Source: a virus
Lineage: Duplodnaviria > Caudoviricetes
Virus record (IMG/VR): IMGVR_UViG_3300028920_000023
Length of the DNA: 64,000 nt
Reading direction: 5' to 3' (one strand)
The stretch's first letter is position 1. Each line of letters begins with the position of its first letter. Positions 8,134 through 59,453 of the stretch are shown piece by piece. The translations under genes and the position numbers were made by a program. The notes under the pieces are model-generated. The model was not told where the DNA came from. It saw only the letters and a list, made by a program, of their open reading frames with translations, and made no database searches.

Positions 8134-10272
8134 TCACTTACCAAATATAAAGATCGGTTCGAACGTCCTTTCTCGGCCCATAAAGCTAGCTGTCTTCATA
8201 TCCACGGTCTTGATTAGTCTCCTCTTATTATTCCTGGCTATCTTCATACAAAGATCGGAATGTCTGCGTGGGACATTTAAGGCAACCAAACCCTCGAAGG
8301 ACATAATATTCTCATATATTCCCTCAGAAGATACACACTGGGAATCAAGACCACAATAGAATTCGGTGTCATCATAAGGAGGACTAGTAAATAACAAATC
8401 ACCTTTCACGAGACTCAATTTGGAACTGTCGCCGTGAATAAATTCAGGATTATGCTTAACTCTACAACCAACAAACTTCCTCATGTCTCGATGAGAATCA
8501 ACACACAATGGATTCAGGTCATATCCAACATATCTATAATCACTGTCCATAGTAGCTAAAAATCTGCCGCCCCAGCCCATACAAGGATCAACAATAACTC
8601 CACCATTAGGTAAAAACTCCTCGTATATATTACGGGCAACCCAAGGTTTGAACACAGATACGCTAGTAAAATCTTTAAAATACTTCGCAATGTACGAAAC
8701 TAAACCGTGGATATTCACCTCGCGGTCTCTATTCCATAAATTATTCAAAGCTTTTCGTAAAACAGATGTATTCCCAGCTTCCCACACTGAAGAAACTGGC
8801 AAGTAGTCTTTGTGATGAGAACTCCAAAAATGTTGTGAGAAATGTTTTATGAAATCCACAACCGGTTTATTGGGATAATTAGCATTTAGACTCCACCCGT
8901 TCTTCGCCTTATAAGCCTTACATCCCTTAATAGCTCTAGTCAGTACACCTTTGCGGAACTTAACACCTTTAAAACCATAATCTAACAACCAGTCACAACA
9001 AGCGTCAGGATCATTAAATATCAACTTCCAATTAGGACAATAATAGATATCGATATCTTCTAATTCAAAATCATAAAATTTGCCATTCCAAACTTTGACA
9101 ATGACATCGTTCTTGAAAGCAACCAAATATTGTTTAATAAGCCTAGACCTATCGACACCAGGAATCTCAGATTCCTCTCTAGACTTCACCTCGTAATAAT
9201 CACCGTTGATTAGAAAATCAATAAAACAAACACTACCATCACTCTCGAACTCAGCATTACGCAGAATTTCGCTATCTGGGGAAAGATTCATAGATTTAAG
9301 AAATTTCTTTTCTAATTTGGTATCAAGACGCAGACCCTTAAAATTGAAACTTTGGCTTCTTCTATTCAACAACAATTTGGTATATTCGGCTTTAGATCTT
9401 GCCTTGATACCATGTTTCTTCAAATGGTGAGAAACATTACCAAGCATAGTACCTACTTCATCTGCGATATCGGCCATACTCCTTTGTTTGTTAACGTACT
9501 GGTCAAACAACCAATCCTTATCGTTCAGCTGATAATATTTGGAGGGCCTAATAACCCCGCCTTGTTTCCTAATAGCAAAACCAAAATGCCTCAACCTATT
9601 GAGGACTGCGCTATATGACTTATTGAAATGTTCAGCGATCTTAGAAATAAGCCATCCCCTATCAACATACAATTCTTTCAATTCATCATAAGTAACATCG
9701 AAATTGCCAAAAGCAAATTCGGATTCAACACCAAATCTCTTAGCAGCCATACATACCGTATTAGCACGAACACCCAACTTATTAGCTATCTGTCTAAAAG
9801 AAAACTTTTGAGCCTCCTTAATAAAAGCCGCTTTATCATTCAATAAAGTAGGTCTCTTTGCTTCGTCCATATTCCTGAATTCCATATCTGGATAAGTCTT
9901 CTTTAATTTCCTCTTTAAAGTAGGAATAGCAACATCATAATCTTTTTTAAGGCGATCCAAACTAACGCCAGAATCATATTTGGCCTTTATCTCTTTCAAA
10001 GGAAGCTTCTTAGTAGCCATCTTGGACATATGGCTACTCTTAATATTATTCCTCTTAGCGAAAGCCGAAACACTGCCTACATTACAACCCAAAATCCTGG
10101 AAACCTCGGAAAAAGATTTCCCCTCAACCTCAACCATTTTTCTAATCATGTTAACATCCATAATATGCCTCCTAACGCATGTCTCCTGATCGCACTTATA
10201 TCGCCATATAGAATCGCGTAAATTAATTATGACACGGTATGGTAAAAAGTTAATGTCATAATATCTCAACAA
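8134..10272 (-). CDS. Multi-HTH + PD-(D/E)xK nuclease-like + amino-DNA methyltransferase fusion
   Basis: Several short HTH repeats (SFSEVSRILGC, SFRQIANKLGV, SKIAEHFNKS, SMADIADEVGT); FIDFLINGDYYEVKS; MTase motif I VDPCMGWGGR and motif IV FTSPPY. Confidence 0.75.
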   Translation of the reverse strand: MLRYYDINFLPYRVIINLRDSIWRYKCDQETCVRRHIMDVNMIRKMVEVEGKSFSEVSRILGCNVGSVSAFAKRNNIKSSHMSKMATKKLPLKEIKAKYDSGVSLDRLKKDYDVAIPTLKRKLKKTYPDMEFRNMDEAKRPTLLNDKAAFIKEAQKFSFRQIANKLGVRANTVCMAAKRFGVESEFAFGNFDVTYDELKELYVDRGWLISKIAEHFNKSYSAVLNRLRHFGFAIRKQGGVIRPSKYYQLNDKDWLFDQYVNKQRSMADIADEVGTMLGNVSHHLKKHGIKARSKAEYTKLLLNRRSQSFNFKGLRLDTKLEKKFLKSMNLSPDSEILRNAEFESDGSVCFIDFLINGDYYEVKSREESEIPGVDRSRLIKQYLVAFKNDVIVKVWNGKFYDFELEDIDIYYCPNWKLIFNDPDACCDWLLDYGFKGVKFRKGVLTRAIKGCKAYKAKNGWSLNANYPNKPVVDFIKHFSQHFWSSHHKDYLPVSSVWEAGNTSVLRKALNNLWNRDREVNIHGLVSYIAKYFKDFTSVSVFKPWVARNIYEEFLPNGGVIVDPCMGWGGRFLATMDSDYRYVGYDLNPLCVDSHRDMRKFVGCRVKHNPEFIHGDSSKLSLVKGDLLFTSPPYDDTEFYCGLDSQCVSSEGIYENIMSFEGLVALNVPRRHSDLCMKIARNNKRRLIKTVDMKTASFMGRERTFEPIFIFGK

Positions 10273-11926
10273 AATATTCTGTAGACAATTTATGATGATT
10301 CAAAGGAGAAAGCTCAACAATATCACAATCATATCTATCACGAATCCAATCACGAATATGTCTATCAACATGTAAAACAATCTTACGACCAGTATTACGT
10401 TTAATTAAACCACCAATAAAATTCTCACACCAATCCTCGAATCCTCCGTAATCAACACCATCTAAATAATCTTCCTTGTCATGAAAAGGAGGAGAAGTAA
10501 ACAAAAAATCATAATCAGACCAATCCAGATCTTCCCATCTAGATCCAAATAATGAAAAAGAAAATTTCTTCTTTGAAGACAACCACTCACCTAAATTAGT
10601 AAGATTCTCATAAGTATTAGGGTCAGTACCAACATACTCAATATTACCCAAACAAGAAGCAATTAACCTATTACCCCACCCAGCACAAGGATCAAACCAC
10701 CGACCACGTAAACCAAACTTCTCGATAACAGCCAAAATAACAGGAACACTCAACAAACTAGCCCTACTAAAACCCGCAAATAACAATTCCCTAACAAACC
10801 TAGACGGATACAAGCGCCTATTGGGAATTCCAAAAAAATTCTTACAAGCCCTACTAACCATCTTAGGATATTTAGATAAATTAGCAACAGCAGGACCATT
10901 CCTAGAGACGCACCAAATATTAGGACAAAAATCCAAAACAATATTATTACCATAAGGAAAACTATTAACGATCTTATCATCCCTCAAATAAGAATTCAAA
11001 TCAATCTTATTGAGCTTTTCAAATTCAGCATCAATATCATATCTCGGATTAATCCAGCCGGACTTAACCACGAAACCACAAAACACAGAACGAACAGCCT
11101 CAACCTCCACAATCTCATTCGACTTCATATCGAAAGAAAAATCTTGAATATTACGGAACCTAAACGAACCACAAACAACAAACCTAGACCTCTTTCTAAC
11201 AGAAAAAACACTACAATCAGAATATAACCAATCACCAATCAGTTTAACCTGCCTATTCCCACACCACCTGATAAAACATCTAGAACTACGAACCTTAACC
11301 CCATTCCTAGAAACACCAACATTAAAACAAACAACATCCTCTACAACACTCAACGCACCACCAGAAAACACAACAACGGCACAAACAGAACCATTGCTCT
11401 TAGATCTCAAACAAACACGACCACCACCATCAAATAACCCACGAACAAAATGACGAATCAAATCAGAAGGAACAACATCAAACAACCCAGAACCACCACC
11501 ATCCCTCCACTTCAGCAAACCATGACCAACCAGACAATCAGACATAACAACGCTATTAAAAACAACACCACAAGAACCATTAGAAAAATGAACCTTACCC
11601 TTATACTTAATATCAGAAACGAATCCACGTATAACACACTCATCCCTGACAGGTAAAAAGAAACGAACAGACCTCCTAGAACCAGCAGACTTAGCCAAAC
11701 AACCACGAGAAGCCAGAAAACCTAACCAATAAGCCTTCCTTTCACAATCAATAACATCAAAATAATGATCATCTACATCAACCTTAACGCCAGAAGAAGA
11801 CCCAGAAAGAGACAAAACCCTCATCCTACGTCTGACCGTAGATAAACTAATGCCAAGCTCAGAAGCAATCCTCTTTTGAGAAAACTTCTTCTTATATAAA
11901 CCAACAATAACATCATCTCGATTCAT
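10256..11926 (-). CDS. HTH + degenerate LAGLIDADG + amino-DNA methyltransferase fusion
   Basis: SQKRIASELGIS HTH; KAYWLGFLASRG and HFVRGLFDGGG (LAGLIDADG motifs lacking the catalytic Asp); motif I FDPCAGWGNR and motif IV FTSPPF. Confidence 0.75.
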   Translation of the reverse strand: MNRDDVIVGLYKKKFSQKRIASELGISLSTVRRRMRVLSLSGSSSGVKVDVDDHYFDVIDCERKAYWLGFLASRGCLAKSAGSRRSVRFFLPVRDECVIRGFVSDIKYKGKVHFSNGSCGVVFNSVVMSDCLVGHGLLKWRDGGGSGLFDVVPSDLIRHFVRGLFDGGGRVCLRSKSNGSVCAVVVFSGGALSVVEDVVCFNVGVSRNGVKVRSSRCFIRWCGNRQVKLIGDWLYSDCSVFSVRKRSRFVVCGSFRFRNIQDFSFDMKSNEIVEVEAVRSVFCGFVVKSGWINPRYDIDAEFEKLNKIDLNSYLRDDKIVNSFPYGNNIVLDFCPNIWCVSRNGPAVANLSKYPKMVSRACKNFFGIPNRRLYPSRFVRELLFAGFSRASLLSVPVILAVIEKFGLRGRWFDPCAGWGNRLIASCLGNIEYVGTDPNTYENLTNLGEWLSSKKKFSFSLFGSRWEDLDWSDYDFLFTSPPFHDKEDYLDGVDYGGFEDWCENFIGGLIKRNTGRKIVLHVDRHIRDWIRDRYDCDIVELSPLNHHKLSTEYFVEIL

Positions 11927-12653
11927 AATTATCCCTAATAACAGAAAGAAAAGACAAAAACTCAGAATCAGACCTACGCTTCTTAGCCCTATTCAAGGCT
12001 CTAAGAACCAACCTCACATTACCAATAACATGACCAACATCATTATCAACCCTATCAACAGACAAAGACAAACAAGGATGTCTATAACAACACATCCTAA
12101 TACCAGACAACGTACATCGTCCACCCTGTTTATCAAACAAATCCAATAAAAAATCCGTCGTCAAATCAGAATCCTCACCACGCATAACATTCCTTCTTAA
12201 AGAAGAAACGAAATCTCTAGAAACACAATCATCAGGAACAAACAAATCAGAATTAATCAAACAATCAACCAAAAACAATAAATCCTCAGTAGAACCCGTA
12301 TTACGAGCCAAATTCAAACCCATACAAATTAATTGAATATTACCAATAATATGACCAACATCATTATCAATCCTATCAATAGAAACAGAAAACAAAGAAC
12401 CATCATATACAAGCGGGGTATTAGAGACACAACACCGACCGTTATTCTTATGAAATAATTCTAGAACATATTCTCTATTAATAGAGAAATCTCTGCCTTT
12501 CTTACGATCCTCAAATTTAGCCGTACCAAGACATCTAGTAATATAATTATTCAAAGAAGTTTTATATCTATTAGAATCCCTATAAATCTGAGAAGCATTA
12601 CGCCGTGATCTACTTTTCTTTACATAACGTCTATTTCGTTCTTTCCTGTCCAT
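11913..12653 (-). CDS. Tandem HNH/His-Me finger endonuclease-like protein
   Basis: Two repeats: SIDRIDNDVGHIIGNIQLICMGLNLARN and SVDRVDNDVGHVIGNVRLVLRALNRAKK. Confidence 0.7.
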   Translation of the reverse strand: MDRKERNRRYVKKSRSRRNASQIYRDSNRYKTSLNNYITRCLGTAKFEDRKKGRDFSINREYVLELFHKNNGRCCVSNTPLVYDGSLFSVSIDRIDNDVGHIIGNIQLICMGLNLARNTGSTEDLLFLVDCLINSDLFVPDDCVSRDFVSSLRRNVMRGEDSDLTTDFLLDLFDKQGGRCTLSGIRMCCYRHPCLSLSVDRVDNDVGHVIGNVRLVLRALNRAKKRRSDSEFLSFLSVIRDNYESR

Positions 12654-12663
12654 AACATGTTCC

Positions 12664-12730
12664 TAATAAAAGTATTCATAAACAATAAAAAACAAACAAT
12701 ATCATATTTTTTATTTAATAAAAGTATTCA
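12664..12730. repeat. Perfect 15-bp direct repeat taataaaagtattca (12664..12678, 12716..12730)
   Basis: Read directly; intergenic, just upstream of the HNH/MTase cassette; 52-bp period. Confidence 0.85.
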
Positions 12731-12846
12731 CAGAATCGTAAAAATTGTTCTATTAGCCAATCAAACCAACATCACTAACCCGGTTATATAGACATTAATC
12801 CATCAGACAGACCAATTAAATACAGATGAGCTAAAACCAAATACAA

Positions 12847-12875
12847 AAACGGCCAGGATTTTGTCCTGGCCGTTT
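12847..12875 (-). terminator. Rho-independent terminator after the major capsid gene
   Basis: Perfect 12-bp stem aaacggccagga/tcctggccgttt with 5-nt loop; T-run follows on the minus strand. Confidence 0.85.
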
Positions 12876-12901
12876 CCGTTATCCAAAAAACCTGTAAAAT
12901 A

Positions 12902-14440
12902 TTACAGATTAGAGACAGTGACAGTTCCGTAGTATAAGCCACCATCCTCGATAAGTTTCTTACCGTAACGGGTCATGATGCCCTTATTCGGCGTGAAGCT
13001 ATTCGGGTCAAGAACCGTCGGCGTACTCAGCAGCGGAATATACGGCGCATAGAAATAACCGCTATCCAGCACAGAATTACCCTTGAAGCCCATCAGGATC
13101 TTACAATTCGGGAACAGAGGATCCTTGTACAGACGCAGCTTGCCCTGGATCGTACCCGCAGAAGTGATACCAATATCGATACCATCCTGCGCCAGAGCAT
13201 CACTACCACGGAAATCATTCAGCTGCTCAAACTTGCTGGCGATATCCGCAGACGTCACCATCCAGTTCGCCGGACCACGGAGCGTAGTACGATGAATGAT
13301 GTTCGCAACCTCAAGGACCTTGTACAGCAACGCAATGTTGCGATCCGTGAAGTTAACCGAAGCACCAGCAGCCGTGCCAAAATTATGCGTAGCACGAATA
13401 CTAGAAGCGATAATCAGATCGTTAATAATTTCACGATCGATCTCCGCAACCATCTCATCCGCCATCAGATCCGTCAAGGTGCCCTCAGCGTCGATATTAT
13501 GAACCGACTTAAGGTCCTGAGCAGCTTCCAAAGACCACGTGGTCTTCAACTTTCGAGCCACAGCACTCACCGAATCACTATCAATCGAGAGAGTGATCTC
13601 GGGCTGGAACGGGTTGTTCTCCAAATCGTACTCATAATCCGCTCGGACGATGGCCGTATCCGGAAGAGTACCGCTCGCCAACGTGATCACAACCTCACCA
13701 GTCTGGTGATTGAACGCCGTCGCACCACTAGTCGAAACATCAACCTCGACCGACGGACAATTCGTGTTGTCACCAGCAAACACGTTCTCGACTTCACCGG
13801 TGCTGTCAAAAGTGACCTGCAGACAGGGTTCTGCATCTTCACAATTGTCATCATCTTCGGCGTAGACGTTCACGAGCACCGTGCCGGCGAGAATCGGCTT
13901 ATGAATCAGCGTGCCGCGAATCACCGTACCACCGCTCTCGATATCAAGGCTTTCACCCTTTACCGTCTGAGAGCTGTAGTAAGGATCAAGTGCCCAACCA
14001 TTCTGACGGCTGAACTGCTGCGCCGTATTCTGACGCATGATCTGCGTACCGGCGAGCGTCTGACCCTTATTCAGAGCATAGCGGTACCTGATGTAGAAGA
14101 TCAGGCTTGCGGGGCTGCTCATGGGCTGTACACCGACAAGGTTATCTGCGATCAGTCGCGGATAGCTCTTGCGGATGAGGGGAAGGGCAAACCGGGTAAA
14201 GTCGGCGATGTTGCCGGTGGTGGTCGCTTCTTCCATTATCGGCGTGGAGTTGGCTTGGTAGCCATGCTGGTTTTCCATCATGGCCGCCATGAGGGCGAAC
14301 TTCGCGGGCTTGATTTCGGCACAGCGTTGCAGCACTGGTGCCCATTTTTCGACGAGTTGATTGCGTTTGGCCTCATGGATGAGATGGGCCTGGCGCTGTT
14401 GTCGTTTGCTTTCTATCAGGGTTGGTCTACCCGAACGCAT
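12902..14440 (-). CDS. gp23: Major capsid protein, T4 gp23-like
   Basis: LVGVQPMSSPASLIFYIRY, ARKLKTTWSLEAAQDLKSVHNIDAE and YFYAPYIPL are gp23 signatures. Confidence 0.95.
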   Translation of the reverse strand: MRSGRPTLIESKRQQRQAHLIHEAKRNQLVEKWAPVLQRCAEIKPAKFALMAAMMENQHGYQANSTPIMEEATTTGNIADFTRFALPLIRKSYPRLIADNLVGVQPMSSPASLIFYIRYRYALNKGQTLAGTQIMRQNTAQQFSRQNGWALDPYYSSQTVKGESLDIESGGTVIRGTLIHKPILAGTVLVNVYAEDDDNCEDAEPCLQVTFDSTGEVENVFAGDNTNCPSVEVDVSTSGATAFNHQTGEVVITLASGTLPDTAIVRADYEYDLENNPFQPEITLSIDSDSVSAVARKLKTTWSLEAAQDLKSVHNIDAEGTLTDLMADEMVAEIDREIINDLIIASSIRATHNFGTAAGASVNFTDRNIALLYKVLEVANIIHRTTLRGPANWMVTSADIASKFEQLNDFRGSDALAQDGIDIGITSAGTIQGKLRLYKDPLFPNCKILMGFKGNSVLDSGYFYAPYIPLLSTPTVLDPNSFTPNKGIMTRYGKKLIEDGGLYYGTVTVSNL

Positions 14441-23100: not shown

Positions 23101-23502
23101 CTTGCACAAATATCTGATAATAGGACGAATTTCCCTATCAATCATCAGAGTATTATACAGAAAATCTTCAATTACCTTCTTGACTTTCTTGTTCTTTGCC
23201 TTAACCAACACACTGTGCTTGCGTTCTGGGTCAACAAGACTAGACTCATCTGCATAAATATCCAAAGCTAGAGAAATTTCCCCAGTCTGGTCCATCATAT
23301 CATAATCTTTGTAGCGCTCTAACCTGTTAATCTGTAGGTTGGTCTGTTCCAACAAAGCAGACTGCCTACCTACATTTAATAATTGACCACCCTGAGTGAC
23401 CCTCTCAACATCATCTTGGTCGGAATATAGGTTGTCCACCCGATATAGGTTGGCTTGCTTGAAGTAAGCACGTATCCGATCCCAAAGCTGAAAACTAGGC
23501 AT
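20101..23502 (-). CDS. gp20: Portal protein, T4 gp20-like, with two inteins (about 572 aa spliced)
   Basis: EISLALDIYADE, PYGK|SIL, RLMEDAALIYRV|TRAPEKRIFNI, QEDDFWMP, IADIEYFKKK. Confidence 0.93.
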   Translation of the reverse strand: MPSFQLWDRIRAYFKQANLYRVDNLYSDQDDVERVTQGGQLLNVGRQSALLEQTNLQINRLERYKDYDMMDQTGEISLALDIYADESSLVDPERKHSVLVKAKNKKVKKVIEDFLYNTLMIDREIRPIIRYLCKFGDFAAEIVPTKHRNGVSGYRFMNIYNFTRIHTKYDDLVGFYYQNAVAGEPEFLYPWQVLHMRLTSLENIYEPYGKCCIEGTLVDTPNGQKRIEEIRSGEIVYSFDGMHNVPTRVIDLVDNGYKQTYSIHTSCRRLDLTSNHPVMTYQGNNLVYKQVNELSHGDMIIVPEKDNIVVEGISRIEKRDNKQVFDIGVESNYHNFVANGAVVHNSILDGGRKDYKRLRLMEDAALIYRVCVRGDTRVSTPDGYKHVRDIEVGDTAFCLDRDIEQKPTKIINCVCNGRHKIYRVFSRHREIFTNATHPILVVSPYKKDGVLYHDKLEYVDTQDLKTLENTCAKHYCHRFLLPRIENEELIKLEHPDVPIYARLSEPVNCSIGKDSNTTIKAFLSEHAYIEKDLAESILQEINIKQNLEYMKGWCYNFPQRICRQYNVPLVADEDFAKWFGFMIGDGYVSTRGRIKQVGFALGDDREINEQYKQLFEKIVTEVSFGQDEDYRLGSYYVYSKHLVDFMLINGFIQGAENKRIPSWVYRSPRKIQIAFIDGYLDADGNSRYFKGGITEGHTIECCNEKLVEDFKELIDRMGWSAGLISHRKRDGGHIIDKKTNRTMPDTESWVLYFTKEELPEHERILGVEEIGEDLVYDVTVENDVHNVIYNGIYTHQTRAPEKRIFNIPIGQIPPHQVPQYIQLLARQMKKHRFVDPGTGEINERWNPLIQEDDFWMPKRPDGTGPSIDTLPGAENLDKIADIEYFKKKMVSGLKIPFSRVGIGDPSESDGKSLSSVSPEFAKSVQWIQREVVLGLKKICLVHLALRNHDVSDMREFDLYMTAASAIDELYRIETWNTRSNIMGNLKDLGWFPPEWIIERFTDLTPDEILSLKANSDNALKEPDIKEEDLDEDEKELLNETMKSIYEAQKIQEQTNSEKDYGLSVESFLNKNEFDGIEKGSIGPVSVDTKVIEEAKEDYLLALKRMDDSFVMSQPVTRTIAEGVEEYTSDYATE
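21115..22392 (-). mobile_element. LAGLIDADG-containing intein (426 aa) in portal, C-terminal His-Gln
   Basis: YRV|CVRGDT...GIYTHQ|TRAPE; FGFMIGDG and GYLDADG blocks. Confidence 0.88.
22468..22872 (-). mobile_element. Mini-intein (135 aa) in portal
   Basis: YGK|CCIEGT...GAVVHN|SILD; no endonuclease blocks. Confidence 0.88.
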
Positions 23503-23525: not shown

Positions 23526-23533
23526 TATTTTTA
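23526..23533 (-). promoter_or_regulatory. Candidate late promoter TAAAAATA upstream of portal
   Basis: YAAANATA instance before the AAGAGG SD. Confidence 0.45.
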
Positions 23534-24826
23534 TTTCAATTTAAGGTGAAACTTGGACAAAGGAGGCGTTTTGTACTTTCTATAACCATAAGTACTCACA
23601 AATTCGGACTCAACCATATGAGCAGAACGAGCCTGATTATACAACGTCTTCTTATGCAACTTCCAACCATCCTCATTAACATAGAAATATGAAGGGGCAG
23701 TATAACCATCAAAAACCCAATTCGAGGCCCTATAGATCGTACCAGCATGTCCAGCAGAAGGATCTGAAAAACTAAACAAATAACGAATATTAGAAGGAAC
23801 CAACTTGACACACCTACTTAGAAAATAAGAAGCAAGATTCTTATTCCTAACAAAAGGAACAATAACAAACCTACTCAACTCCATAGCTTCATCCTTCCTG
23901 CAATACGATACATAAACCTCCCTACGGATAGGATGAGAAAAAACAGCACCACAAACCAACTTATCCCCAATATAACCACCAACATAAAAGCCCCTTCTGC
24001 CAAGAGAACCCATATAATGATAATTGCACATCAAATATTGCATTTCATCTTCATTAGCAATTTTAATACTTAAATCTTTAAGATCAATTTTCTCTGACTC
24101 TTTATAAAAACCAACCCACCTCTTCAACAAAGCTTGCATCTTATTAAAATCAAATAACTGATGCTCCCAGACCGTCTTTAACTCATAACCATCGAGCGTA
24201 GAAACATACGAACTCTTAGCCTCATCTTTCCTGGCAACATCGGGTCTGCGGTGCACCCAGTGGCTATTGACTTCTAACAGCAAATCTGTCTCGTCACGAT
24301 GAATAAGGAAATCGAAAGTATATGGACCCAAAACAACTTGATGCTTATACTCAATATTCAGAGAATCAAGAATCTCCTGCATCCTTTTCTCGGTATTTGG
24401 AGTACTAGTGAGTTGCTTCACTAAGGATACAGCGTGAGCTTTTCTATAATTTTCATCCATCCAAGCCTTTTTAGCAGCCTCGGAACACTTCCTCCTGGAC
24501 TCCACATCCCGTACTGACTCAGAGTGTTTACTGCGGTATTTCTCGTCTTTCCATAATTCTTGGGACGATTTCTTTCTCTTATCGACATAATCTTTCTTTT
24601 CCCATATTTTCTTTTGTATCGTGGAGTGTTTCTTTTTTATGTCTGGTTTATTACAGGCACATTTATAACATAACCAGTCAATATTATTGTTTCTTATGCG
24701 TGATTTAACTCTGATGGTTAGGTCTCTGGTCGCATTACAATTATCACATTTGGCTACTATTTTAGGACGTTTTTGGGACAGGTCTACGTTGCCGAATTTT
24801 TGTTTGGTGAGATTCCAGTCGATCAT
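23531..24826 (-). CDS. Zn-ribbon/helical repeat + Vsr/DUF559-like nuclease + Mom-like GNAT fusion (copy 1)
   Basis: CDNC/CYKC; TEKRMQEIL...GPYTFDFL...LLEVNSHWVH; YHYMG...MELSRF...FSFSDPSAGHAGTIYRASNW; ATGA-coupled to terminase. Confidence 0.8.
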   Translation of the reverse strand: MIDWNLTKQKFGNVDLSQKRPKIVAKCDNCNATRDLTIRVKSRIRNNNIDWLCYKCACNKPDIKKKHSTIQKKIWEKKDYVDKRKKSSQELWKDEKYRSKHSESVRDVESRRKCSEAAKKAWMDENYRKAHAVSLVKQLTSTPNTEKRMQEILDSLNIEYKHQVVLGPYTFDFLIHRDETDLLLEVNSHWVHRRPDVARKDEAKSSYVSTLDGYELKTVWEHQLFDFNKMQALLKRWVGFYKESEKIDLKDLSIKIANEDEMQYLMCNYHYMGSLGRRGFYVGGYIGDKLVCGAVFSHPIRREVYVSYCRKDEAMELSRFVIVPFVRNKNLASYFLSRCVKLVPSNIRYLFSFSDPSAGHAGTIYRASNWVFDGYTAPSYFYVNEDGWKLHKKTLYNQARSAHMVESEFVSTYGYRKYKTPPLSKFHLKLK

Positions 24827-39532: not shown

Positions 39533-39598
39533 GCTTTGGGCCTCCCAGCCTTTGCACGGTTGTATCGTCGAAGAGTATCACAGAAAGTTAATTATGCT

Positions 39599-40228: not shown

Positions 40229-40423
40229 ATGACAAAATTTGAGAAAAAACTAGACAAAATACTATCAGAAATGCTCGGGACGCATATAAAAGCACCAACA
40301 CGAGCATTCCGAAGAGCAGGACTAACACTCAGAATAGGCAAAAGATTCGACGGACCGCCAGAAACACGATACAAGAAAATGATGACAACAAATTTCAAGA
40401 ACCAGATGACATTCTACATATAA
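40229..40423 (+). CDS. Small basic hypothetical protein (possibly leaderless)
   Basis: 64 aa; ATG 5 nt after CAAATATA, no SD. Confidence 0.5.
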   Translation: MTKFEKKLDKILSEMLGTHIKAPTRAFRRAGLTLRIGKRFDGPPETRYKKMMTTNFKNQMTFYI

Positions 40424-42150
40424 TATATAAACCTTTTCTTCTCATACCCCCATACCTTGTGATATCCGAACTTCTCACAATATTCTGATTCAGGCATTCT
40501 CATCTTGGATGCCTTATTCCACAGTGTTTTCTTATGGCAGACATACCCGAGATGATCTACATACCAGTAACTAGGTTTTACTATGCCGTCCAATCTCCAG
40601 TTAGATGCTTTATATATAGTTCCATGATGATTAAAAGTTAGATCTGCAAATGTAATTAAACATTTTATATCTGAGCGGTAAGATTTTATGGCTTTAATAG
40701 ATCGTGAAATCATAAAACTAGCAAAATTTTTCTTCTGATAAGAAGGATGTATACACAACCTTGTAAGTTCCAACATTTCTTTTGGTTTAAATCCTTGCTT
40801 ATCCGCAGATTCTTTGCGAGTTAAGGGACCATAACAAACGACTCCGATTAAAATCTCGTCACAATAGAAGCCAATATAGGTCCCTCTTTTACCTAATCTA
40901 CCAGAATAATGATATTTTCCGACGAACAAAGTAGCTTCGTCCACATCAACTGGCCTAATTACAACATCTTTAAATTCAAAATCTGTCTTCTTTACTTCCC
41001 CAATATTCAACCAATATCGGATTGTGTCCATGACCCTATCTTGGTTATCAAATTCATGCTCCCATATATACTTGATATCATACTTTGGATGATACCTTTT
41101 GGTGAATGTGGCTTTAGACCGATCTTTTGAAACAGTATGTGGTAAAGAATGCCAATAATCTCCATTTATATCAATCAATAAAGGCCTATGTATACCAAGT
41201 GATTTTTGTGGATCTATCCTACAATCCCAAATATAATAACCAACTTTGCACATCTCTGATGTATCGTCGTGATATTCTATCCCAAGATCTGCTAACATGC
41301 TGTAGAATACCTTCTGGATCAAACTTGTTCTAGGTTGGTGTAACCTGATTATTGCCATTTTCTCCCTAAATGATGATGAATTAATGATCTCTAACATTTT
41401 GTCTCTGTATTCCGGATCTTGCCATCTCTTTTTAGATGCCAGAGAAGCTTTTTTCCTCATAACATCATCACGCCACATTTCCCGTGATTTTTTAGCAATT
41501 CGTTCCCATGGTATCGTCTCTTTCCATTTACGGACCCATTCTGGATCAGAAAATAAAAGTTTATTTCGATCAGAACTTAATTTAGCCATCTTCTTTTTAT
41601 ATTCTGGATTAAGCCAGGGCATCTTACCATATTCTGACATCTGTTTACGAAAATCATCAGTAACCAGAAAATCTCTCCAATTTCCACGCATATTCCTCCA
41701 GAAAGTTGAAGAAGATTCACTCAACTTCTTCTTAAATTCCGGAGTATAGATGCCATCAAATTTCCCTTCTTTATGTGCTCTGGAACCAGAGCAAGACTGA
41801 CACGAAAAACGACCATCATTTCTACGTTTATTAGCTAAATAATTTCTGTATTTAAGAGTAATTTTACTCTTGCAAACACTACATTCTCTGGTGATAATAT
41901 CAGAATGCAAAGTCCTCCCAGAATCCTTGGCCTTCTTGGCCAACTTCCTACCAATTGCTTTTCCATTTTCTTTGACTTTACAAGAATGACAAACATATTC
42001 TTTTCTTGATAAAGTATTGACATAATATCTTATTCGCATTACCTTAATCTCTCGTATAGAACCACATCTCACACAACCCAAAGGCACTTTATCATGACTG
42101 GTAAGGTTCTCTATCGACTTTATCTCAAATATTCCTTTTGATGTCAACAT
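40414..42150 (-). CDS. Zn-ribbon/helical repeat + Vsr/DUF559-like nuclease + Mom-like GNAT fusion (copy 2)
   Basis: Two CxxC...CxxC units, W-x-(D/N)-P-E-Y repeats; YIWDCRI...IDINGDYWH...IWEHEF; YHYSG...LELTRL...ITFADLTFNHHGTIYKASNW. Confidence 0.8.
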   Translation of the reverse strand: MLTSKGIFEIKSIENLTSHDKVPLGCVRCGSIREIKVMRIRYYVNTLSRKEYVCHSCKVKENGKAIGRKLAKKAKDSGRTLHSDIITRECSVCKSKITLKYRNYLANKRRNDGRFSCQSCSGSRAHKEGKFDGIYTPEFKKKLSESSSTFWRNMRGNWRDFLVTDDFRKQMSEYGKMPWLNPEYKKKMAKLSSDRNKLLFSDPEWVRKWKETIPWERIAKKSREMWRDDVMRKKASLASKKRWQDPEYRDKMLEIINSSSFREKMAIIRLHQPRTSLIQKVFYSMLADLGIEYHDDTSEMCKVGYYIWDCRIDPQKSLGIHRPLLIDINGDYWHSLPHTVSKDRSKATFTKRYHPKYDIKYIWEHEFDNQDRVMDTIRYWLNIGEVKKTDFEFKDVVIRPVDVDEATLFVGKYHYSGRLGKRGTYIGFYCDEILIGVVCYGPLTRKESADKQGFKPKEMLELTRLCIHPSYQKKNFASFMISRSIKAIKSYRSDIKCLITFADLTFNHHGTIYKASNWRLDGIVKPSYWYVDHLGYVCHKKTLWNKASKMRMPESEYCEKFGYHKVWGYEKKRFIYYM

Positions 42151-51881: not shown

Positions 51882-53012
51882 CTAATGAAGAATGGGACCC
51901 AAAGGTTCAGAATGCAAAATTGCGTCCTGAACTGTCTTTTCTTTCTCCTGTTGTCCCTCGGTCCTCATCTGTTCACCATTCAGACTCAAAGAACCACCGC
52001 CAGGAGCAGGTATATTACCGAACTTGCTCCTGACATTTCCAATCATAATCTTAGCTTCTGCAATCAGAGCTCTCTTAGTAAGTTCTCTAGCCCAAGGGCT
52101 TCTGAAATGGTTAACAACCGGGATGTATTCTATAACTACAGGAAAACTGCCACGTGGTGTTGGAAACAACCTAATCTTATTATCTCCTTTAACTTCCCAT
52201 TGTCCCTCGGTACCCAATATTCGCTGACTGAATTTGCGATACGATAACAACATGTGGTAATCAAGGAGTAAATTCTGAATGCCAGTAACGTTTCCTATAT
52301 TGAACAGGAAACTATTATGTACGACAAAATCGTTTGCAATTAAATTATGAAATTCTTTGGTTTCAAAATCATATGTCTCAAATTCACCAACTTCTACAAT
52401 TGATGATATTTTAGCTAAGATTACAGTATCTGATTTCCTCATATAAAGGCGCTGATCAACTGTGAGGTCCTTTGCTAACTTCCAACCATTTTCACTCATA
52501 AACTTATGATTAAATGATGCAACAACAGTAGAATCATCTGCGGTTATCTCTAAACATTTCTTCATACCTGATTCTTTTCTACTGATAATCTCATCTTCTA
52601 CAATATTGCCGTTACTATATGACAATATCTTAGACCCTACCTGTAGGTCTCTCGCTTGTATTTTCCCATCATACAACGAAATAAGACAATCACCGCGCAG
52701 ACATTCAGCTCCAAATATGTCACCAATACGCGTGGTCGCCGGATCCCACGAAACATTCTGAACCCAATAAGCGTCCTGGGGCAGATTATAACCATTAACC
52801 AAAGGCTGAGTATTAAAGTACGCATACTTCTGTTCAGAAGGAAAGTAAGTAGCTATAAAATCACAAGTGGATCTTATAGCCTGTTCCAATTGCGGTTCTG
52901 TAATCTCATTAGCAATTACAGGGTGGCCAAGTGTCGATAATACCTCGAATTTGGTCTCGTCGTTGTTCTTACGTAGTACAACGGGTAATTTATCAGGACC
53001 AATAATAGCCAT
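51882..53012 (-). CDS. Neck protein, gp13-like, with a mini-intein (about 246 aa spliced)
   Basis: LSTLGHPVIANEITEPQLEQAI, WARELTKRALIAEAK...RSKFGNIPAPGG...LNG. Confidence 0.8.
   Translation of the reverse strand: MAIIGPDKLPVVLRKNNDETKFEVLSTLGHPVIANEITEPQLEQAIRSTCDFIATYFPSEQKYAYFNTQPLVNGYNLPQDAYWVQNVSWDPATTRIGDIFGAECLRGDCLISLYDGKIQARDLQVGSKILSYSNGNIVEDEIISRKESGMKKCLEITADDSTVVASFNHKFMSENGWKLAKDLTVDQRLYMRKSDTVILAKISSIVEVGEFETYDFETKEFHNLIANDFVVHNSFLFNIGNVTGIQNLLLDYHMLLSYRKFSQRILGTEGQWEVKGDNKIRLFPTPRGSFPVVIEYIPVVNHFRSPWARELTKRALIAEAKIMIGNVRSKFGNIPAPGGGSLSLNGEQMRTEGQQEKEKTVQDAILHSEPLGPILH
52314..52703 (-). mobile_element. Mini-intein (130 aa) in neck protein
   Basis: GAE|CLRGDC...TYDFETKEFHNLIANDFVVHN|SFLF. 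Confidence 0.88.
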
Positions 53013-55049: not shown

Positions 55050-55069
55050 TCCCTGACCAAGTTCAATAT

Positions 55070-55077
55070 TATTTTTG
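55070..55077 (-). promoter_or_regulatory. Candidate late promoter CAAAAATA
   Basis: Intergenic, upstream of 54627..55049. Confidence 0.5.
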
Positions 55078-55093
55078 CACGGCGTAGATATTC

Positions 55094-55741: not shown

Positions 55742-55750
55742 AACTTCCCC

Positions 55751-56281: not shown

Positions 56282-56308
56282 AGTATCAATAGGAATATGT
56301 CGTGAAAA

Positions 56309-58003
56309 TTATCTAGGATCCACAGGAGGAACTTTGAAATTACCCTTCTCAAAAAAGAACTTCAGATCTAGATTACCGAGCGTGATCACCTCATTAAAAC
56401 CAACGCCAGGATTATCCGGATCAGCGATCTTATTAGTCTCAATAATATCATCAGCAGGACTGAAGATATTCGTATAAGAAACACCAGGAACATTCTGAAT
56501 CACATCATATAAATTAGACAAAAACATCCCAGTACCCATCTCAAAATTATTAATATTGAAGAAATCACGAATAGCATCTTCAACAGCCACCTTGACAGTA
56601 CCAGAATCAGCATTCCGGCTCATAACAACACTAGCCTCAACATCAATAGGCTTAATAGCACCATCATAAATCCTAACCTCATCCGTCAAAACATTAATAC
56701 GACTGAAGAAATCAACCAAACCCCTCTTAAGCCCACTATTAGGTCTGACAGGAGTCTGATCAGGACCCTCAGCAAGAGCATAAACCTCCACAATATTCCT
56801 ATTCACGAAATCATTCTGAATAATAGCAACACCTTCTGCAACAGAAGGAGCAGCCTGCACAGCCTTTACTACAGAATCAAAATCCTGATCAACACCCGTC
56901 CTGAGAGTACCAATAGCCTTAGAAACAGAACCAAAAACCGGATGTGTAAAATTCTTAGCTAAAATACCATAATCCTCACTAGTAACAGCATTCTCCTGCG
57001 TAGAGAACTCTCTAGGAGCACGCCTTTTAGCCTCCTCAACCGTCTCAGCATCAGTACCACCAGAAGACGGATTCGGATTCCTAAACAAAGCCTCAACAGC
57101 AGCATTATAAGGAGCATCAGGAATAACTGGTCTAGTATCGTTAATAGCACCAGAACCAATACGACCACGAATACCACCACCAGTACGATACCTAACCGTA
57201 ATCTCCTGGCCAGTTAAAGGAGACTTACCAGCAATATCATTGCCAAATCGAATCCTAGAGCTATTCTCCAGATGAATAACCTCGTATACCTCCTCATCTG
57301 CAGAAGCTTTCTCTAGGATATCGACCCTGCGCCATACAGACACTTCAGAACCAGTTCTAACCTCAACCCTAATCGGTTCATCAAGAACATTGCTTTGTTC
57401 AATCTCAATACTCTGATCTGTACCACCGGGCGAGCTAATAATGAGAGGAGTGCCGGTCTTACCCTCTATACCATAAGCTACAATGCCCTTCTTGCCAGCG
57501 GGTACAATTATATCCGAAGTAAAATCGCCCGGAGCCCTAAATATCTCATATGTCAAAGGCTGGTTATCCGGACCTCTAATACTAAAGCTAGTGCCAGCGG
57601 GGACTTTAATCTCAGTCGGCAGAGGAGAATCTATGGTAATCAGCACATCCACCGTAGCTGGGGTAGCTCTCTGGATATCTTGGTTGATTAACTGAAGGTG
57701 ATTGGATACGGCTTCTCTTGTCTGGGCCGTCGGCAGGAACGATTCGTCCACAAGAATGTCTGCACGTTGTGATAAATTACCGCCTATAAAAGACAGTAAT
57801 TCAAGAAGCATAATTATACCATTATTAGCTACATAATCATTAAAGTCATTCGGATAATACGTTCGTAAGTATTCGATACCAGCTCTGCGGAACGCCTCAA
57901 AATCAAGCGCGGAATAATCCAGCCTACGCAGCTCCGCAGGATCTAAAACGACACCGAATTCCTCCGGAGCATTAGGAAGTTTAAATAAAACATTCTCAGC
58001 CAT
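56309..58003 (-). CDS. Baseplate wedge subunit (gp6/J-like)
   Basis: LDYSALDFEAFR...DYVANNGIIMLLELL...ESFLPTAQTRE, IRFGND, SSGGTDAET.EE.KRRAP...AVTSEDY. Confidence 0.88.
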   Translation of the reverse strand: MAENVLFKLPNAPEEFGVVLDPAELRRLDYSALDFEAFRRAGIEYLRTYYPNDFNDYVANNGIIMLLELLSFIGGNLSQRADILVDESFLPTAQTREAVSNHLQLINQDIQRATPATVDVLITIDSPLPTEIKVPAGTSFSIRGPDNQPLTYEIFRAPGDFTSDIIVPAGKKGIVAYGIEGKTGTPLIISSPGGTDQSIEIEQSNVLDEPIRVEVRTGSEVSVWRRVDILEKASADEEVYEVIHLENSSRIRFGNDIAGKSPLTGQEITVRYRTGGGIRGRIGSGAINDTRPVIPDAPYNAAVEALFRNPNPSSGGTDAETVEEAKRRAPREFSTQENAVTSEDYGILAKNFTHPVFGSVSKAIGTLRTGVDQDFDSVVKAVQAAPSVAEGVAIIQNDFVNRNIVEVYALAEGPDQTPVRPNSGLKRGLVDFFSRINVLTDEVRIYDGAIKPIDVEASVVMSRNADSGTVKVAVEDAIRDFFNINNFEMGTGMFLSNLYDVIQNVPGVSYTNIFSPADDIIETNKIADPDNPGVGFNEVITLGNLDLKFFFEKGNFKVPPVDPR

Positions 58004-59453
58004 ATAATTCCTTTACAAATCTTATTCTTCTTCCAGTGTATATTTTTCTATATCCGAACTTTACTGCAAAATCTGATTCTTTCATCCTTATCGATCTAGC
58101 ATGAACATATAAAGTTTTCTTATGTATAATATGCCCGTTGGAATCTACATACCAATAACTAGGCTTGTTACAACCGTCTTCCATCCATCCAGACGCTTTA
58201 TAAATGGTCCCCAAATGTTGGAAGGCCTCATCAGAAAATGCCAATAGATATTTCACATATGTTCTGTTCTTTTTTATAAACTTCACACATCTGGACAAAA
58301 ACCAAGACGATAAATTATGAGAATAATACCCAGGATTAAGACAGAATTTATTTAATTCTAATACCTGGTGAGGCTCTGCCCCTAACCTATCAGCGCTCTC
58401 TTTTCTAGTAATCGAGGAAAAAGAAGATACACCAATAAGTATAGTACGATGATAAATTCCAAAGTATGTTCCTCCTCTCCCACCTTTTGTCATATAATGA
58501 TACTTCGATAAAAATTCATCGCCCTCCTTACGATTAATTACGCAGAAATTTATAGATTCCTTGTCAATATGTCTTATTTCCTCCGTCTTTCCCAAGATTT
58601 CGAATATTCTATCTCTAATTCTATTCTTAGCTAAGAATTCGTGTTCCCATAATATCAACAAATCGTAATCCTTCGCCAATTTCTCATTATAGAACTTCAT
58701 AAATTTCTTATCTTTCTCAACCCGTTCCGGTATAAACCTGTGATGGTAATCTCCATTTACGAATATAATACACGGCCTATCGGACAAGATCATCGCATCA
58801 CATCTATAAGAACCAAAAGATAATTTTCTAATATCTTCAGGCTCCTTATAATATTCTAAACCTAAATCATCTAGTATCGAATATAAAATTAATTGATTAG
58901 AACTGATCCAATTGTGGTTGTTGCTTATTCTTTCCATCCCAGAAAACCAAGCTTCTCTAAATTTTTTAGTTCTCCATAATTCTTTCATCTTAACTGACGC
59001 AGATCTTCTCATCTCCTCTGTATAGGGCTTCCTCAACTTCATCTTTGCTGCTTTAACAGGATCACAATATGCTTTATTAACAGCATCGGATATTTTACGT
59101 CTAAAATCCTCGGTCACTAATGATAAAGACATTTTACGACTTAGTTCGCGGTTTTCCTGTCTACGCTGAGTAGAGGCCGAAGCACTGTGGGCATTCTTTC
59201 TTTGCTCTTCTGTAAGAGATAACAATTTCATAATACTTTTACTCTTATCAATCTTACTAATCATATTGTGTCTATATTTCTCATCTTTCCATAGTCTCTT
59301 TAAATTCTGGGAATTTTTATTTCCTATTTTCTCATACATACATTTTCTGCAATTTTTCGTACCTTTCGATCTTCTATTATATAGAGCCCTCTTAGTTAAC
59401 TCGATATTCCTATTGCAATTAGGGCAAGAAATAATCACCTTCTCAGACATCAT
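57996..59453 (-). CDS. Zn-ribbon/helical repeat + degenerate Vsr/DUF559-like nuclease + Mom-like GNAT fusion (copy 3)
   Basis: CPNC...CRKC, LWKDEKYR; SYRCDAMI...IIFVNGDYHH...LWEHEF; YHYM...LELNKF...LAFSDEAFQHLGTIYKASGW; overlaps both neighbours. Confidence 0.8.
   Translation of the reverse strand: MMSEKVIISCPNCNRNIELTKRALYNRRSKGTKNCRKCMYEKIGNKNSQNLKRLWKDEKYRHNMISKIDKSKSIMKLLSLTEEQRKNAHSASASTQRRQENRELSRKMSLSLVTEDFRRKISDAVNKAYCDPVKAAKMKLRKPYTEEMRRSASVKMKELWRTKKFREAWFSGMERISNNHNWISSNQLILYSILDDLGLEYYKEPEDIRKLSFGSYRCDAMILSDRPCIIFVNGDYHHRFIPERVEKDKKFMKFYNEKLAKDYDLLILWEHEFLAKNRIRDRIFEILGKTEEIRHIDKESINFCVINRKEGDEFLSKYHYMTKGGRGGTYFGIYHRTILIGVSSFSSITRKESADRLGAEPHQVLELNKFCLNPGYYSHNLSSWFLSRCVKFIKKNRTYVKYLLAFSDEAFQHLGTIYKASGWMEDGCNKPSYWYVDSNGHIIHKKTLYVHARSIRMKESDFAVKFGYRKIYTGRRIRFVKELYG

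What the first reader, a model, noticed from the sequence alone, without database searches (positions are those of the whole stretch)
8134..59453. Unifying pattern: five genes couple endonuclease-derived DNA-binding modules to DNA-modifying enzymes
Seen: besides the three Mom fusions, 10256..11926 (HTH + LAGLIDADG + MTase) and 8134..10272 (multi-HTH + PD-(D/E)xK + MTase) have the same layout with different parts: homing-endonuclease-type N-terminus, modifier C-terminus. Inference: this lineage repeatedly recruited homing endonuclease scaffolds as targeting modules for base modification, either as locus-specific genome marking or as single-polypeptide R-M/exclusion elements used against co-infecting relatives. 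I do not recognise this as a described system.
Basis: inference. Interest (0 to 1): 0.75.

Follow-up and report, generated by a model that had tools for sequence, protein, structure and literature searches.

The report
Mobile phage nucleases fused to DNA modifiers
Five genes of a giant T4-like phage each join a homing-type DNA cutter or binder to a DNA-modifying enzyme; they are mobile selfish inserts built from interchangeable parts, of which the Mom type is already described and the methyltransferase type seems not to be.

Summary
All five genes encode DNA-binding repeats, a nuclease-type domain and a C-terminal base modifier. Three are Zn-ribbon + Vsr/EDxHD nuclease + Mom. One is five HTH + PD-ExK + amino-methyltransferase (MTase). 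One is HTH + LAGLIDADG + MTase.

- Four of the five keep every nuclease catalytic residue. Only the LAGLIDADG copy has lost both catalytic Asp, so only it is a mere "DNA-binding module".
- This lineage did not invent the fusions. Each architecture has 40-80 full-length metagenomic homologs, and the three Mom fusions fall in three separate clades.
- All five are AT-rich inserts, absent from the same gene junctions in the relatives compared.
- In related phages the flank behind the capsid gene is empty or holds HNH, HNH-MTase, HTH-PD-ExK-MTase, LAGLIDADG-MTase, LAGLIDADG-Mom or Vsr-Mom.
- The Mom fusions are the known "Hef-like homing endonucleases"; REase-Mom fusions in jumbo phages were predicted in 2021. 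This scan has also met them before on other DNA.
- I found no paper describing the nuclease-MTase fusions.

Most likely these are free-standing homing elements whose modifier marks their own target site. That immunity step is an inference and remains untested.

The parts
8134..10161 (-). Gene B, 675 aa (the ORF is open to the TTG at 10272): five HTH units + PD-ExK nuclease + helical linker + amino-MTase
   Evidence: 78 homologs; start inferred from homolog starts.
9397..10161 (-). Gene B: array of five tri-helical HTH modules (residues 1-255)
   Evidence: Pfam HTH hits; helices of the AF2 model.
9064..9378 (-). Gene B: PD-(D/E)xK nuclease core (residues 262-366) with E284, D315, E324, K326
   Evidence: These residues are invariant in alignment A2. 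The model has alpha-beta-beta-beta-alpha-beta topology. Atlas look-alikes are DUF7487, TnsA-like, Endo I and DUF559. Weak Bax1 hit.
8137..8676 (-). Gene B: MTase catalytic domain (motif I DPCMGWGGR, motif IV TSPPY), with no target-recognition domain
   Evidence: Z 15-16 to Trm14, Trm11, TrmN, METTL5.
10256..11926 (-). Gene A, 556 aa: HTH + double-motif LAGLIDADG (both catalytic Asp lost) + linker + amino-MTase
11177..11764 (-). Gene A: LAGLIDADG domain. Motif 1 reads GFLASRG and motif 2 reads LFDGGG, where the family has LADG and FDGDG
   Evidence: Alignment A1: D74 and D168 are kept in 90% or more of the rows, and among those printed only the window copy lacks both. Motifs are intact in seven of eight related loci; the first motif of L053 was not matched.
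10259..10711 (-). Gene A: MTase catalytic domain (DPCAGWGNR, TSPPF, K-E-x-Y)
   Evidence: Invariant columns in A1 and A4; fold matches.
11913..12653 (-). Tandem HNH / EndoVII-like gene (246 aa), first gene of the AT-rich cassette behind the capsid-gene terminator
   Evidence: PHROG endonuclease and endonuclease VII hits. Homologs stand alone or are fused to the MTase in relatives. Terminator at 12843-12879.
23531..24826 (-). Hef-like gene 1 (431 aa) between the terminase and portal genes: Zn ribbon and basic repeats, Vsr/EDxHD nuclease (24107-24406), Mom domain (23534-24094)
   Evidence: Absent from this junction in three relatives.
40414..42150 (-). Hef-like gene 2 (578 aa) behind the tail sheath gene: Zn ribbons and repeats, Vsr/EDxHD nuclease (40996-41328), Mom domain (40417-40983)
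   Evidence: In G001 the sheath gene runs straight into the next gene; in G004 a 1.2-kb gap lies there without this gene.
57996..59453 (-). Hef-like gene 3 (485 aa) between the gp25-like and gp6-like baseplate genes: Zn ribbon and repeats, Vsr/EDxHD nuclease (58584-58916), Mom domain (57999-58562; has K where Mu Mom has R111)
   Evidence: In the 20 related contigs that show gp25 it runs straight into gp6, with no Hef-like gene in any of the 21.

Best explanation
The five genes, and the HNH gene beside two of them, are free-standing, horizontally mobile homing-endonuclease-type elements in the structural module of a roughly 355-kb T4-like phage.

Each protein has three parts: a long-site DNA reader (HTH array, Zn ribbon with basic repeats, or LAGLIDADG saddle), a nuclease, and a base modifier. 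The modifier has little or no target-recognition part of its own. It is either an amino-methyltransferase without a recognition domain or a Mom-type adenine-N6 aminoacyl transferase.

Proposed mechanism:
2. In a mixed infection the nuclease cuts the unmodified allele of a relative that lacks the element.
3. Repair by recombination copies the element and its flanks into that genome.
4. The modifier marks the site on the carrier's own DNA so that it is not cut. This makes the protein a one-chain restriction-modification unit with homing behaviour.

Gene A has lost its nuclease residues but keeps the fold and the MTase. It is best read as an "antidote-only" derivative, a LAGLIDADG-guided methyltransferase.

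Shown here: the architectures, the residue conservation, the insertion polymorphism, the module shuffling and the separate origins of the copies. Inferred: cutting, homing, DNA as the MTase substrate, and the self-immunity role of the modifier.
For: **Domains.** Pfam Mom hits. Family profile against 8bv8 and 3r3p. LAGLIDADG and MTase folds. PD-ExK core.

**Active sites kept.**
- The Vsr-type residues D219 and D248 are invariant and H238 nearly so; the equivalents of Mom H58/Y59, S124, D149 and Y159 are invariant in 25 sequences (mapped through and PMC13219725).
- PD-ExK residues E284, D315, E324, K326 and MTase motifs I and IV are invariant in 26 sequences.

**Mobility.**
- gp25 runs straight into gp6 in the 20 related contigs that show it.
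- The terminase-portal junction is uninterrupted in three relatives, and sheath runs straight into the next gene in G001.
- The contig with the second most similar capsid gene (82%) has nothing behind that gene.
- Mom copy number is 0, 3 and 5 in three complete relatives.
- GC is 0.34-0.38 in these genes against 0.49-0.53 in the capsid and sheath genes.
- The three Mom fusions lie in three clades separated by well-supported branches.

**Modularity.** Of 44 related loci with at least 2.5 kb behind the capsid gene, 18 hold none of these modules within 4.5 kb and 26 hold HNH, HNH-MT, HTH-PD-ExK-MT, HTH-MT, LAGLIDADG-MT or Vsr-Mom. LAGLIDADG-Mom occurs in two shorter loci. All start about 20-300 nt after the capsid stop codon.

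**Literature.**
- Hef of phage U5 is described as a unique endonuclease that cleaves nrdB (PMC2988022).
- Hef-type enzymes belong to the Vsr-like EDxHD family (PMC3239194).
- REase-Mom fusions in jumbo phages were predicted to pair restriction with protective momylation (PMC7824862).
Against: - No cleavage, homing or modification was measured, and no target site is known.
- Classical free-standing homing endonucleases manage without a modifier, so self-immunity is not required by the homing model.
- Gene A keeps its MTase although its nuclease is dead. This shows that the MTase is useful apart from its own nuclease. That fits antidote-only immunity, but it fits general anti-restriction equally well.
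- Mu Mom R151, which is essential in Mu, is not conserved in this family. The R111 equivalent is K in gene 3, and R111K is strongly impaired in Mu (PMC13219725). The chemistry may therefore differ or be weak.
- The best structural matches of the MTase are RNA m2G/m6A enzymes, and no Pfam DNA-MTase model reaches its threshold on the window's two proteins.
- I could not read the original Hef paper, so I cannot say that U5 Hef itself carries a Mom domain.
Confidence: 0.55

Rival explanations
1. Anti-restriction cargo. The modifier domains protect the whole phage genome against host restriction, as Mu Mom or orphan Dam-type methylases do. The nuclease and DNA-binding part serves only to spread the gene or to attack host or rival DNA, so the modification is not matched to the nuclease's own target.
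For: - Mu Mom protects DNA broadly (PMC13219725, PMC7261163).
- PMC7824862 reads multiple Mom genes as a way to overcome several host systems.
- Gene A keeps its MTase after losing the nuclease residues.
- Short, possibly stand-alone members of the MTase family and a 288-aa Mom ORF occur.
Against: - The MTase has no recognition domain and in most of the 150 best hits sits at the C-terminal end of a protein of about 400 aa or more.
- A complete relative of 395 kb has no Mom gene at all, so genome-wide momylation is not a core need of this clade.
- Three to five divergent copies per genome, each with its own reader, are hard to explain by bulk protection.
Confidence: 0.25
2. Domesticated site-specific epigenetic regulators. 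The nuclease-type modules are only DNA readers, and the fusions mark particular phage loci to control packaging, transcription or replication.
For: - Gene A has a dead LAGLIDADG with an otherwise well conserved fold.
- Inactive LAGLIDADG domains do serve as DNA binders in WhiA, which is among the fold matches.
- LAGLIDADG-MT lies directly behind the capsid gene in several divergent phages.
Against: - Four of the five keep complete nuclease active sites.
- The genes are absent from the same junctions in relatives.
- Their composition looks foreign.
- The capsid-gene flank holds many alternative occupants or none. That is the pattern of a homing hot spot, not of a conserved regulator.
Confidence: 0.08
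3. The methyltransferase domains of genes A and B act on RNA (m2G or m6A of tRNA or rRNA) rather than DNA, so the pairing with nucleases has nothing to do with restriction-modification logic.
For: - The best fold matches are Trm14, Trm11, TrmN, METTL5, Tgs1 and RsmC.
- The HNH-MTase homolog has a weak Pfam hit to the cap guanine-N2 MTase family.
Against: - The domain is tethered to HTH arrays, LAGLIDADG, PD-ExK or HNH modules, all of which bind or cut DNA.
- Distant family members match Pfam N6_N4_Mtase, a DNA methylase family.
- The motif (T)SPP(Y/F) is typical of N4-C and N6-A DNA enzymes (from my own knowledge).
Confidence: 0.07

Closest known systems
Hef and 'Hef-like' free-standing homing endonucleases of T4-related, Campylobacter, Klebsiella RaK2-like, Vibrio and Caulobacter phages (Sandegren 2005; PMC3296691; annotations)
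   Same: Genes 23531-24826, 40414-42150 and 57996-59453 match genes annotated as Hef-like across both the nuclease and the Mom parts, and match PHROG 3339 'homing endonuclease' nearly end to end. They also share the free-standing position beside baseplate, tail and packaging genes.
   Different: Identity to the phage isolates is only 23-27%. The N-terminal Zn-ribbon and repeat regions differ. I could not check whether the tested enzyme, U5 Hef, has the Mom domain.
I-Bth0305I, prototype of the EDxHD (Vsr-like) homing endonucleases (PDB 3r3p; PMC3239194)
   Same: The family profile hits 3r3p at E 5e-9. The equivalents of D196, N208 (here N, Q or H), H213 and D222 are conserved.
   Different: I-Bth0305I is intron-encoded, uses NUMOD/HTH readers and has no modifier domain.
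Phage Mu Mom, a tRNA-Gly-dependent adenine-N6 modifier (PDB 8bv8; PMC13219725), and the REase-Mom fusions predicted in jumbo phages (PMC7824862)
   Same: The proteins exceed the Pfam Mom threshold. The equivalents of H58/Y59, S124, D149 and Y159 are invariant. Nuclease fusions present in several copies per jumbo phage are already described, together with the 'restriction plus protective momylation' reading.
   Different: R151 is not conserved, and the R111 equivalent is K in one copy. The domain is tethered to a site-specific reader and nuclease rather than standing alone.
Type IIG / IIC single-chain restriction-modification enzymes such as BpuSI (PDB 3s1s) and MmeI
   Same: Gene B has a PD-ExK nuclease followed by an amino-MTase in one chain. 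BpuSI is among the Foldseek matches (rank 33).
   Different: There is no C-terminal target-recognition domain; recognition would come from five N-terminal HTH units. The gene sits as a mobile insert in phage structural operons. The MTase family is not captured by Pfam.
WhiA/DUF199, a LAGLIDADG domain reused as a DNA binder (PDB 3hyi)
   Same: Gene A keeps the LAGLIDADG fold but lacks both catalytic Asp.
   Different: In gene A the loss is confined to this one copy of an otherwise active-looking family, and the domain is fused to an MTase.

Membership tests
EDxHD / Vsr-like (Hef-type) homing endonucleases | Vsr-like nuclease domain with conserved Asp, Asn/His, His and Asp | tested here: met
   A3 profile against 3r3p, E 5.4e-9. 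D219 and D248 are invariant and H238 nearly so, with N/Q/H at the middle position, in all three window copies.
EDxHD / Vsr-like (Hef-type) homing endonucleases | Gene present or absent at a fixed site between conserved genes | tested here: met
   Absent between gp25 and gp6 in the 20 related contigs that show the junction. Absent between terminase and portal in three relatives, and behind the sheath gene in G001.
EDxHD / Vsr-like (Hef-type) homing endonucleases | Site-specific double-strand cleavage and homing | not testable with these tools
   Needs cleavage assays and mixed infections.
Mom (PF25680) | Match above Pfam's gathering score | tested here: met
   70-109 bits against a cut-off of 27.1.
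Mom (PF25680) | Residues essential in Mu Mom: R111, S124, D149, R151 | tested here: inconclusive
   S124 and D149 equivalents are invariant. The R111 equivalent is R in two copies and K in 57996-59453. The R151 equivalent is S, T or A (PMC13219725).
Mom (PF25680) | Glycyl transfer from Gly-tRNA to adenine N6 in dsDNA | not testable with these tools
   A biochemical assay is required.
LAGLIDADG homing endonucleases | Double alpha-beta-beta-alpha-beta-beta-alpha fold with two LAGLIDADG helices | tested here: met
   Foldseek matches to I-AniI, I-OnuI, I-LtrI and WhiA, probability 1.0. A1 profile against I-Tsp061I, E 3e-4.
LAGLIDADG homing endonucleases | Catalytic acidic residue at the end of each LAGLIDADG helix | tested here: not met
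   The window copy has R74 and G168, where 90% or more of the 23 aligned family members keep Asp.
PD-(D/E)xK nucleases | E ... D ... (D/E)xK motif on an alpha-beta-beta-beta-alpha-beta core | tested here: met
   E284, D315, E324 and K326 are invariant in 26 sequences. Model topology. Atlas structural look-alikes with TM 0.54-0.64 to DUF7487, DUF1064 and DUF559 clusters.
N6-A / N4-C amino-methyltransferases (Pfam N6_N4_Mtase and relatives) | SAM-binding motif I and catalytic (D/N/S)PP(Y/F) motif IV on a Rossmann fold | tested here: met
   DPCxGWGxR and TSPP(Y/F) are invariant. Z 15-16 to Trm14, Trm11, TrmN and METTL5.
N6-A / N4-C amino-methyltransferases (Pfam N6_N4_Mtase and relatives) | Match to a curated DNA-MTase model above threshold | tested here: not met
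   No Pfam hit for either window protein, even at E <= 1. Only distant family members hit PF01555.
Type IIG / IIC single-chain R-M enzymes | Nuclease and MTase in one polypeptide | tested here: met
   Gene B.
Type IIG / IIC single-chain R-M enzymes | Target-recognition domain after the MTase | tested here: not met
   The protein ends about 85 residues after motif IV (residues 593-596 of 675); no further domain appears in the model.

The most novel reading that the evidence does not exclude
A general, undescribed class of self-immunising homing endonucleases. Four unrelated nuclease modules (HNH, LAGLIDADG, PD-ExK, Vsr/EDxHD) are swapped freely against two unrelated base modifiers (an amino-methyltransferase without a recognition domain, and Mom) behind one long-site DNA reader. 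Each protein would cut the unmarked allele of a rival phage and mark its own. The nuclease-dead LAGLIDADG-MTase of this window would be a natural antidote-only derivative, that is, a naturally programmable site-specific DNA methyltransferase.
Probability: 0.35. Interest if true: 0.75.

Novelty: new variant of a known kind. Interest (0 to 1): 0.55.

Why it matters
If the modifier gives the element immunity at its own target, this shows how a homing endonuclease can aim at a sequence that cannot mutate, such as the end of a capsid gene, without cutting its own genome. It would also blur the line between homing endonucleases and restriction-modification systems.

The MTase fusions are numerous in metagenomic phages, and I found no paper that describes them. 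They would be natural examples of long-site, protein-guided DNA methyltransferases (LAGLIDADG- or HTH-guided), a design that engineers build by hand.

For annotation, the three Mom fusions should simply be called Hef-like homing endonucleases with a Mom domain.

Tried and rejected
- Megablast of 8134-14440 against phage isolates found nothing.
- A viral-contig scan with the 485-aa Mom fusion found no relatives, because the peptide patterns were too specific.
- The window's own genome is not held, so copies elsewhere in the phage could not be counted.
- The original Hef paper, PMC1275590, is not held.
- Pfam gives no MTase or nuclease hit for the cut-out domains of genes A and B. Single-sequence PDB searches gave nothing for gene A, only a weak Tgs1 hit for gene B, and hits to Mu Mom (E 4e-5) and, weakly, 3r3p for the 578-aa Mom fusion.
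- The whole-model fold searches of gene B were filled by the MTase domain, so the PD-ExK core was not tested that way. It rests on motif, topology and Atlas look-alikes.
- Rejected: the dead LAGLIDADG goes with an adjacent HNH that replaces it. Two relatives with an adjacent HNH keep LAGLIDADG motifs (both in L020, at least the second in L053).
- Rejected: the three Mom fusions arose by duplication within this genome.
- Rejected: the fusions are assembly artefacts.
The only variable position, E/D/F before V-N-G, is Phe in E. coli Vsr as far as I recall (my own knowledge), and the D/H/D set is intact.
- Paper searches for LAGLIDADG-MTase fusions and for DUF7487 found nothing relevant.


Full report
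**What the window is.** Nearly all genes lie on the minus strand. They form the structural module of a T4-like phage:
- Gp23-type capsid protein at 12902-14440
- prohead protease, Gp20-type portal and large terminase
- tail sheath and tail tube
- gp5-, gp25- and gp6-like baseplate proteins

The contig that carries these proteins is 354,787 bp long. No phage isolate is close at the DNA level.

**Checking the observation.** Three genes carry a C-terminal Mom domain above Pfam's threshold: 23531-24826 (431 aa), 40414-42150 (578 aa) and 57996-59453 (485 aa).
- In front of the Mom domain each has a CxxC...CxxC Zn ribbon, basic W-x-D-x-x-Y-R-x-K repeats and a block of the form D...(E/D/F)-V/I-N-G-D-Y-W-H...D-K...W-E-H-E.
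- A profile of 25 family members hits the EDxHD homing endonuclease I-Bth0305I (3r3p, E 5e-9) and Mu Mom (8bv8, E 3e-13).

Gene 10256-11926 gives an AF2 model of pLDDT 88.9. Its parts match monomeric LAGLIDADG enzymes and class-I amino-methyltransferases.

Gene 8134-10161 gives a model of pLDDT 88.1. It has:
- five tri-helical HTH units
- an alpha-beta-beta-beta-alpha-beta core carrying E284, D315 and E324-x-K326
- a helical linker
- an MTase with DPCMGWGGR and TSPPY

The collection's gene call and the homolog starts place its start at the ATG at 10161, not the TTG at 10272. The two MTase modules are homologous to each other at 22-27% identity.

**Are the nuclease modules only DNA binders?** Mostly not.
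- In the Mom-fusion family D219 and D248 (numbering of the 485-aa protein) are invariant and H238 nearly so. These correspond to D196, H213 and D222 of I-Bth0305I. The fourth position is N, Q or H, as in I-Bth0305I (N208) and Vsr (H64) (PMC3239194). All three window copies have the full set.
- In the HTH-PD-ExK-MTase family the E/D/E/K set is invariant, including in the window copy.
- The LAGLIDADG-MTase family as a whole keeps LADG and FDGDG. The window copy reads LASRG and FDGGG, so it lacks both catalytic Asp, while every invariant MTase residue is retained. Seven of eight related loci checked have both motifs intact.

The modifier sites look active as well.
- The equivalents of Mu Mom H58/Y59, S124, D149 and Y159 are invariant. 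These residues matter in Mu (PMC13219725).
- R151 is not conserved.
- The R111 equivalent is K in the 485-aa copy.

**Are they inventions of this lineage?** No.
- Each architecture has many full-length homologs on independent metagenomic contigs. There are about 40 for LAGLIDADG-MTase (30-55% identity), 78 for HTH-PD-ExK-MTase and 57 for the Mom fusion.
- A profile of the MTase module finds 6,439 cluster representatives. Among the best 150 the module mostly sits at the C-terminal end of proteins of about 400 aa or more. The sampled N-termini were HTH arrays or LAGLIDADG domains in five of ten, and in distant members the module is recognised by Pfam's DNA methylase model.
- The three Mom fusions of the window are only about 31-33% identical to one another. 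In a maximum-likelihood tree they fall in three clades separated by well-supported branches.

**Are they mobile?** The evidence is strong.
- The six nuclease-type genes have GC 0.34-0.38. The capsid gene has 0.525 and the sheath gene 0.49.
- In the 20 related viral contigs that show gp25, it runs straight into gp6. The window has the 485-aa Mom fusion exactly there.
- In three relatives the terminase gene is followed directly by the portal gene. In G001 the sheath gene is followed directly by the next tail gene. The window has Mom fusions at both places, the second together with a radical-SAM gene and a 200-aa gene.
- Three complete relatives carry 0, 3 and 5 Mom genes.

The flank behind the capsid gene is the most telling site. 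I examined 44 related loci (capsid proteins 72-83% identical) with at least 2.5 kb downstream.
- 18 hold none of these modules within 4.5 kb.
- 26 hold one or two genes starting about 20-300 nt after the stop codon. These are HNH alone, HNH-MTase, HTH-PD-ExK-MTase, HTH-MTase, LAGLIDADG-MTase or Vsr-Mom.
- Two shorter loci hold LAGLIDADG-Mom.
- HNH-MTase (L011 9681-11186) and LAGLIDADG-Mom (L040 3301-4719) are single open reading frames.
- B-type MTase modules also occur behind LAGLIDADG domains.

This is a homing hot spot used by several nuclease families. T4-type phages show the same thing at nrdB, which is targeted by both MobE and Hef (PMC2988022). The hot spot also shows that nuclease and modifier modules are exchanged freely.

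**How it most likely works.** The proteins are free-standing homing-type endonucleases with a built-in modifier. I propose that the shared DNA reader directs both activities to one long site in or next to the adjacent conserved gene. The unmodified allele of a co-infecting relative is cut and converted, and the carrier's own copy is marked and spared.

Three points favour this over bulk anti-restriction:
- The MTase lacks any recognition domain and in most of the best hits is tethered behind a longer N-terminal part.
- Two unrelated modification chemistries sit in the same slot behind four unrelated nucleases. What these combinations have in common is a cutter plus a blocking mark.
- Genomes hold several divergent copies, each with its own reader, while a complete relative has no Mom gene at all.

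The dead-nuclease gene A then looks like an orphan "antidote". However, it equally shows that the MTase is useful on its own. I therefore give the anti-restriction reading a quarter of the weight. None of the activities was measured here.

**Comparison with what is known.**
- The Mom fusions are what phage annotators call Hef-like homing endonucleases. tblastn matches cover both the nuclease and Mom parts in Campylobacter, Klebsiella RaK2-like, Vibrio and Caulobacter phages, and PHROG 3339 matches nearly end to end.
- Hef-type enzymes were placed in the Vsr-like EDxHD family in 2011 (PMC3239194).
- Iyer et al. [quoted passage not shown]
- Earlier follow-ups of this scan reached the same verdict on other phages (e1-1889775, e1-370594, e1-1993838).
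- For the nuclease-MTase fusions I found no description. The nearest analogues are Type IIG/IIC enzymes such as BpuSI, a fold match, but those have a C-terminal recognition domain and are not mobile inserts in phage structural operons. WhiA is the precedent for a LAGLIDADG domain reused as a DNA binder.

**Verdict.** The Mom part is already known. The MTase part, and the combinatorial nuclease-by-modifier hot spot, are a new variant of a known kind. Interest is moderate (0.55). It would be higher if the self-immunity mechanism or the LAGLIDADG-guided methyltransferase were shown experimentally.

Noticed in passing
window 20101-23502 (-), about 21115-22785: The portal gene encodes 1133 aa, against 581-658 aa in relatives. 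It contains an intein with a LAGLIDADG domain (Pfam Intein_splicing, Hint, LAGLIDADG_3). Residues of about 240-796 have no counterpart in three relatives.
   Followed up: partly
window 24823-29127 (-), about 27943-28932 and 26221-27558: The large terminase encodes 1434 aa and seems to hold two inteins (Intein_splicing at residues 87-395; LAGLIDADG_3 at 783-861). Both stretches are missing from the terminases of G001 and G004. G002 aligns through the second stretch.
   Followed up: partly
window 51882-53012 (-): A 376-aa protein has weak Hint / intein-splicing hits and a head-tail adaptor PHROG match. It may be another intein-bearing structural gene.
   Followed up: no
window 38639-40201 (-): A radical-SAM gene (297 aa) and a 200-aa gene of unknown family lie between Hef-like gene 2 and the tail genes. 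The whole block is absent in G001, where the sheath gene runs straight into the p253 homolog. They may have been brought in together with the endonuclease gene.
   Followed up: partly
window 12843-12879 (-): A strong terminator-like hairpin (16-bp stem, T run) lies directly after the capsid gene. The AT-rich HNH / gene A / gene B cassette starts about 190 nt further on.
   Followed up: no
L006 7705-9679: In a related 147-kb contig the LAGLIDADG-MTase gene is followed by a 401-aa multi-HTH ORF that overlaps a 268-aa Mom ORF. This may be a split or frameshifted HTH-Mom fusion.
   Followed up: no
L004 7787-8488: In a 242-kb contig the LAGLIDADG-MTase homolog lies away from the capsid gene and is followed by an S-adenosylmethionine lyase gene. 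That is an odd neighbour for a SAM-dependent enzyme.
   Followed up: no
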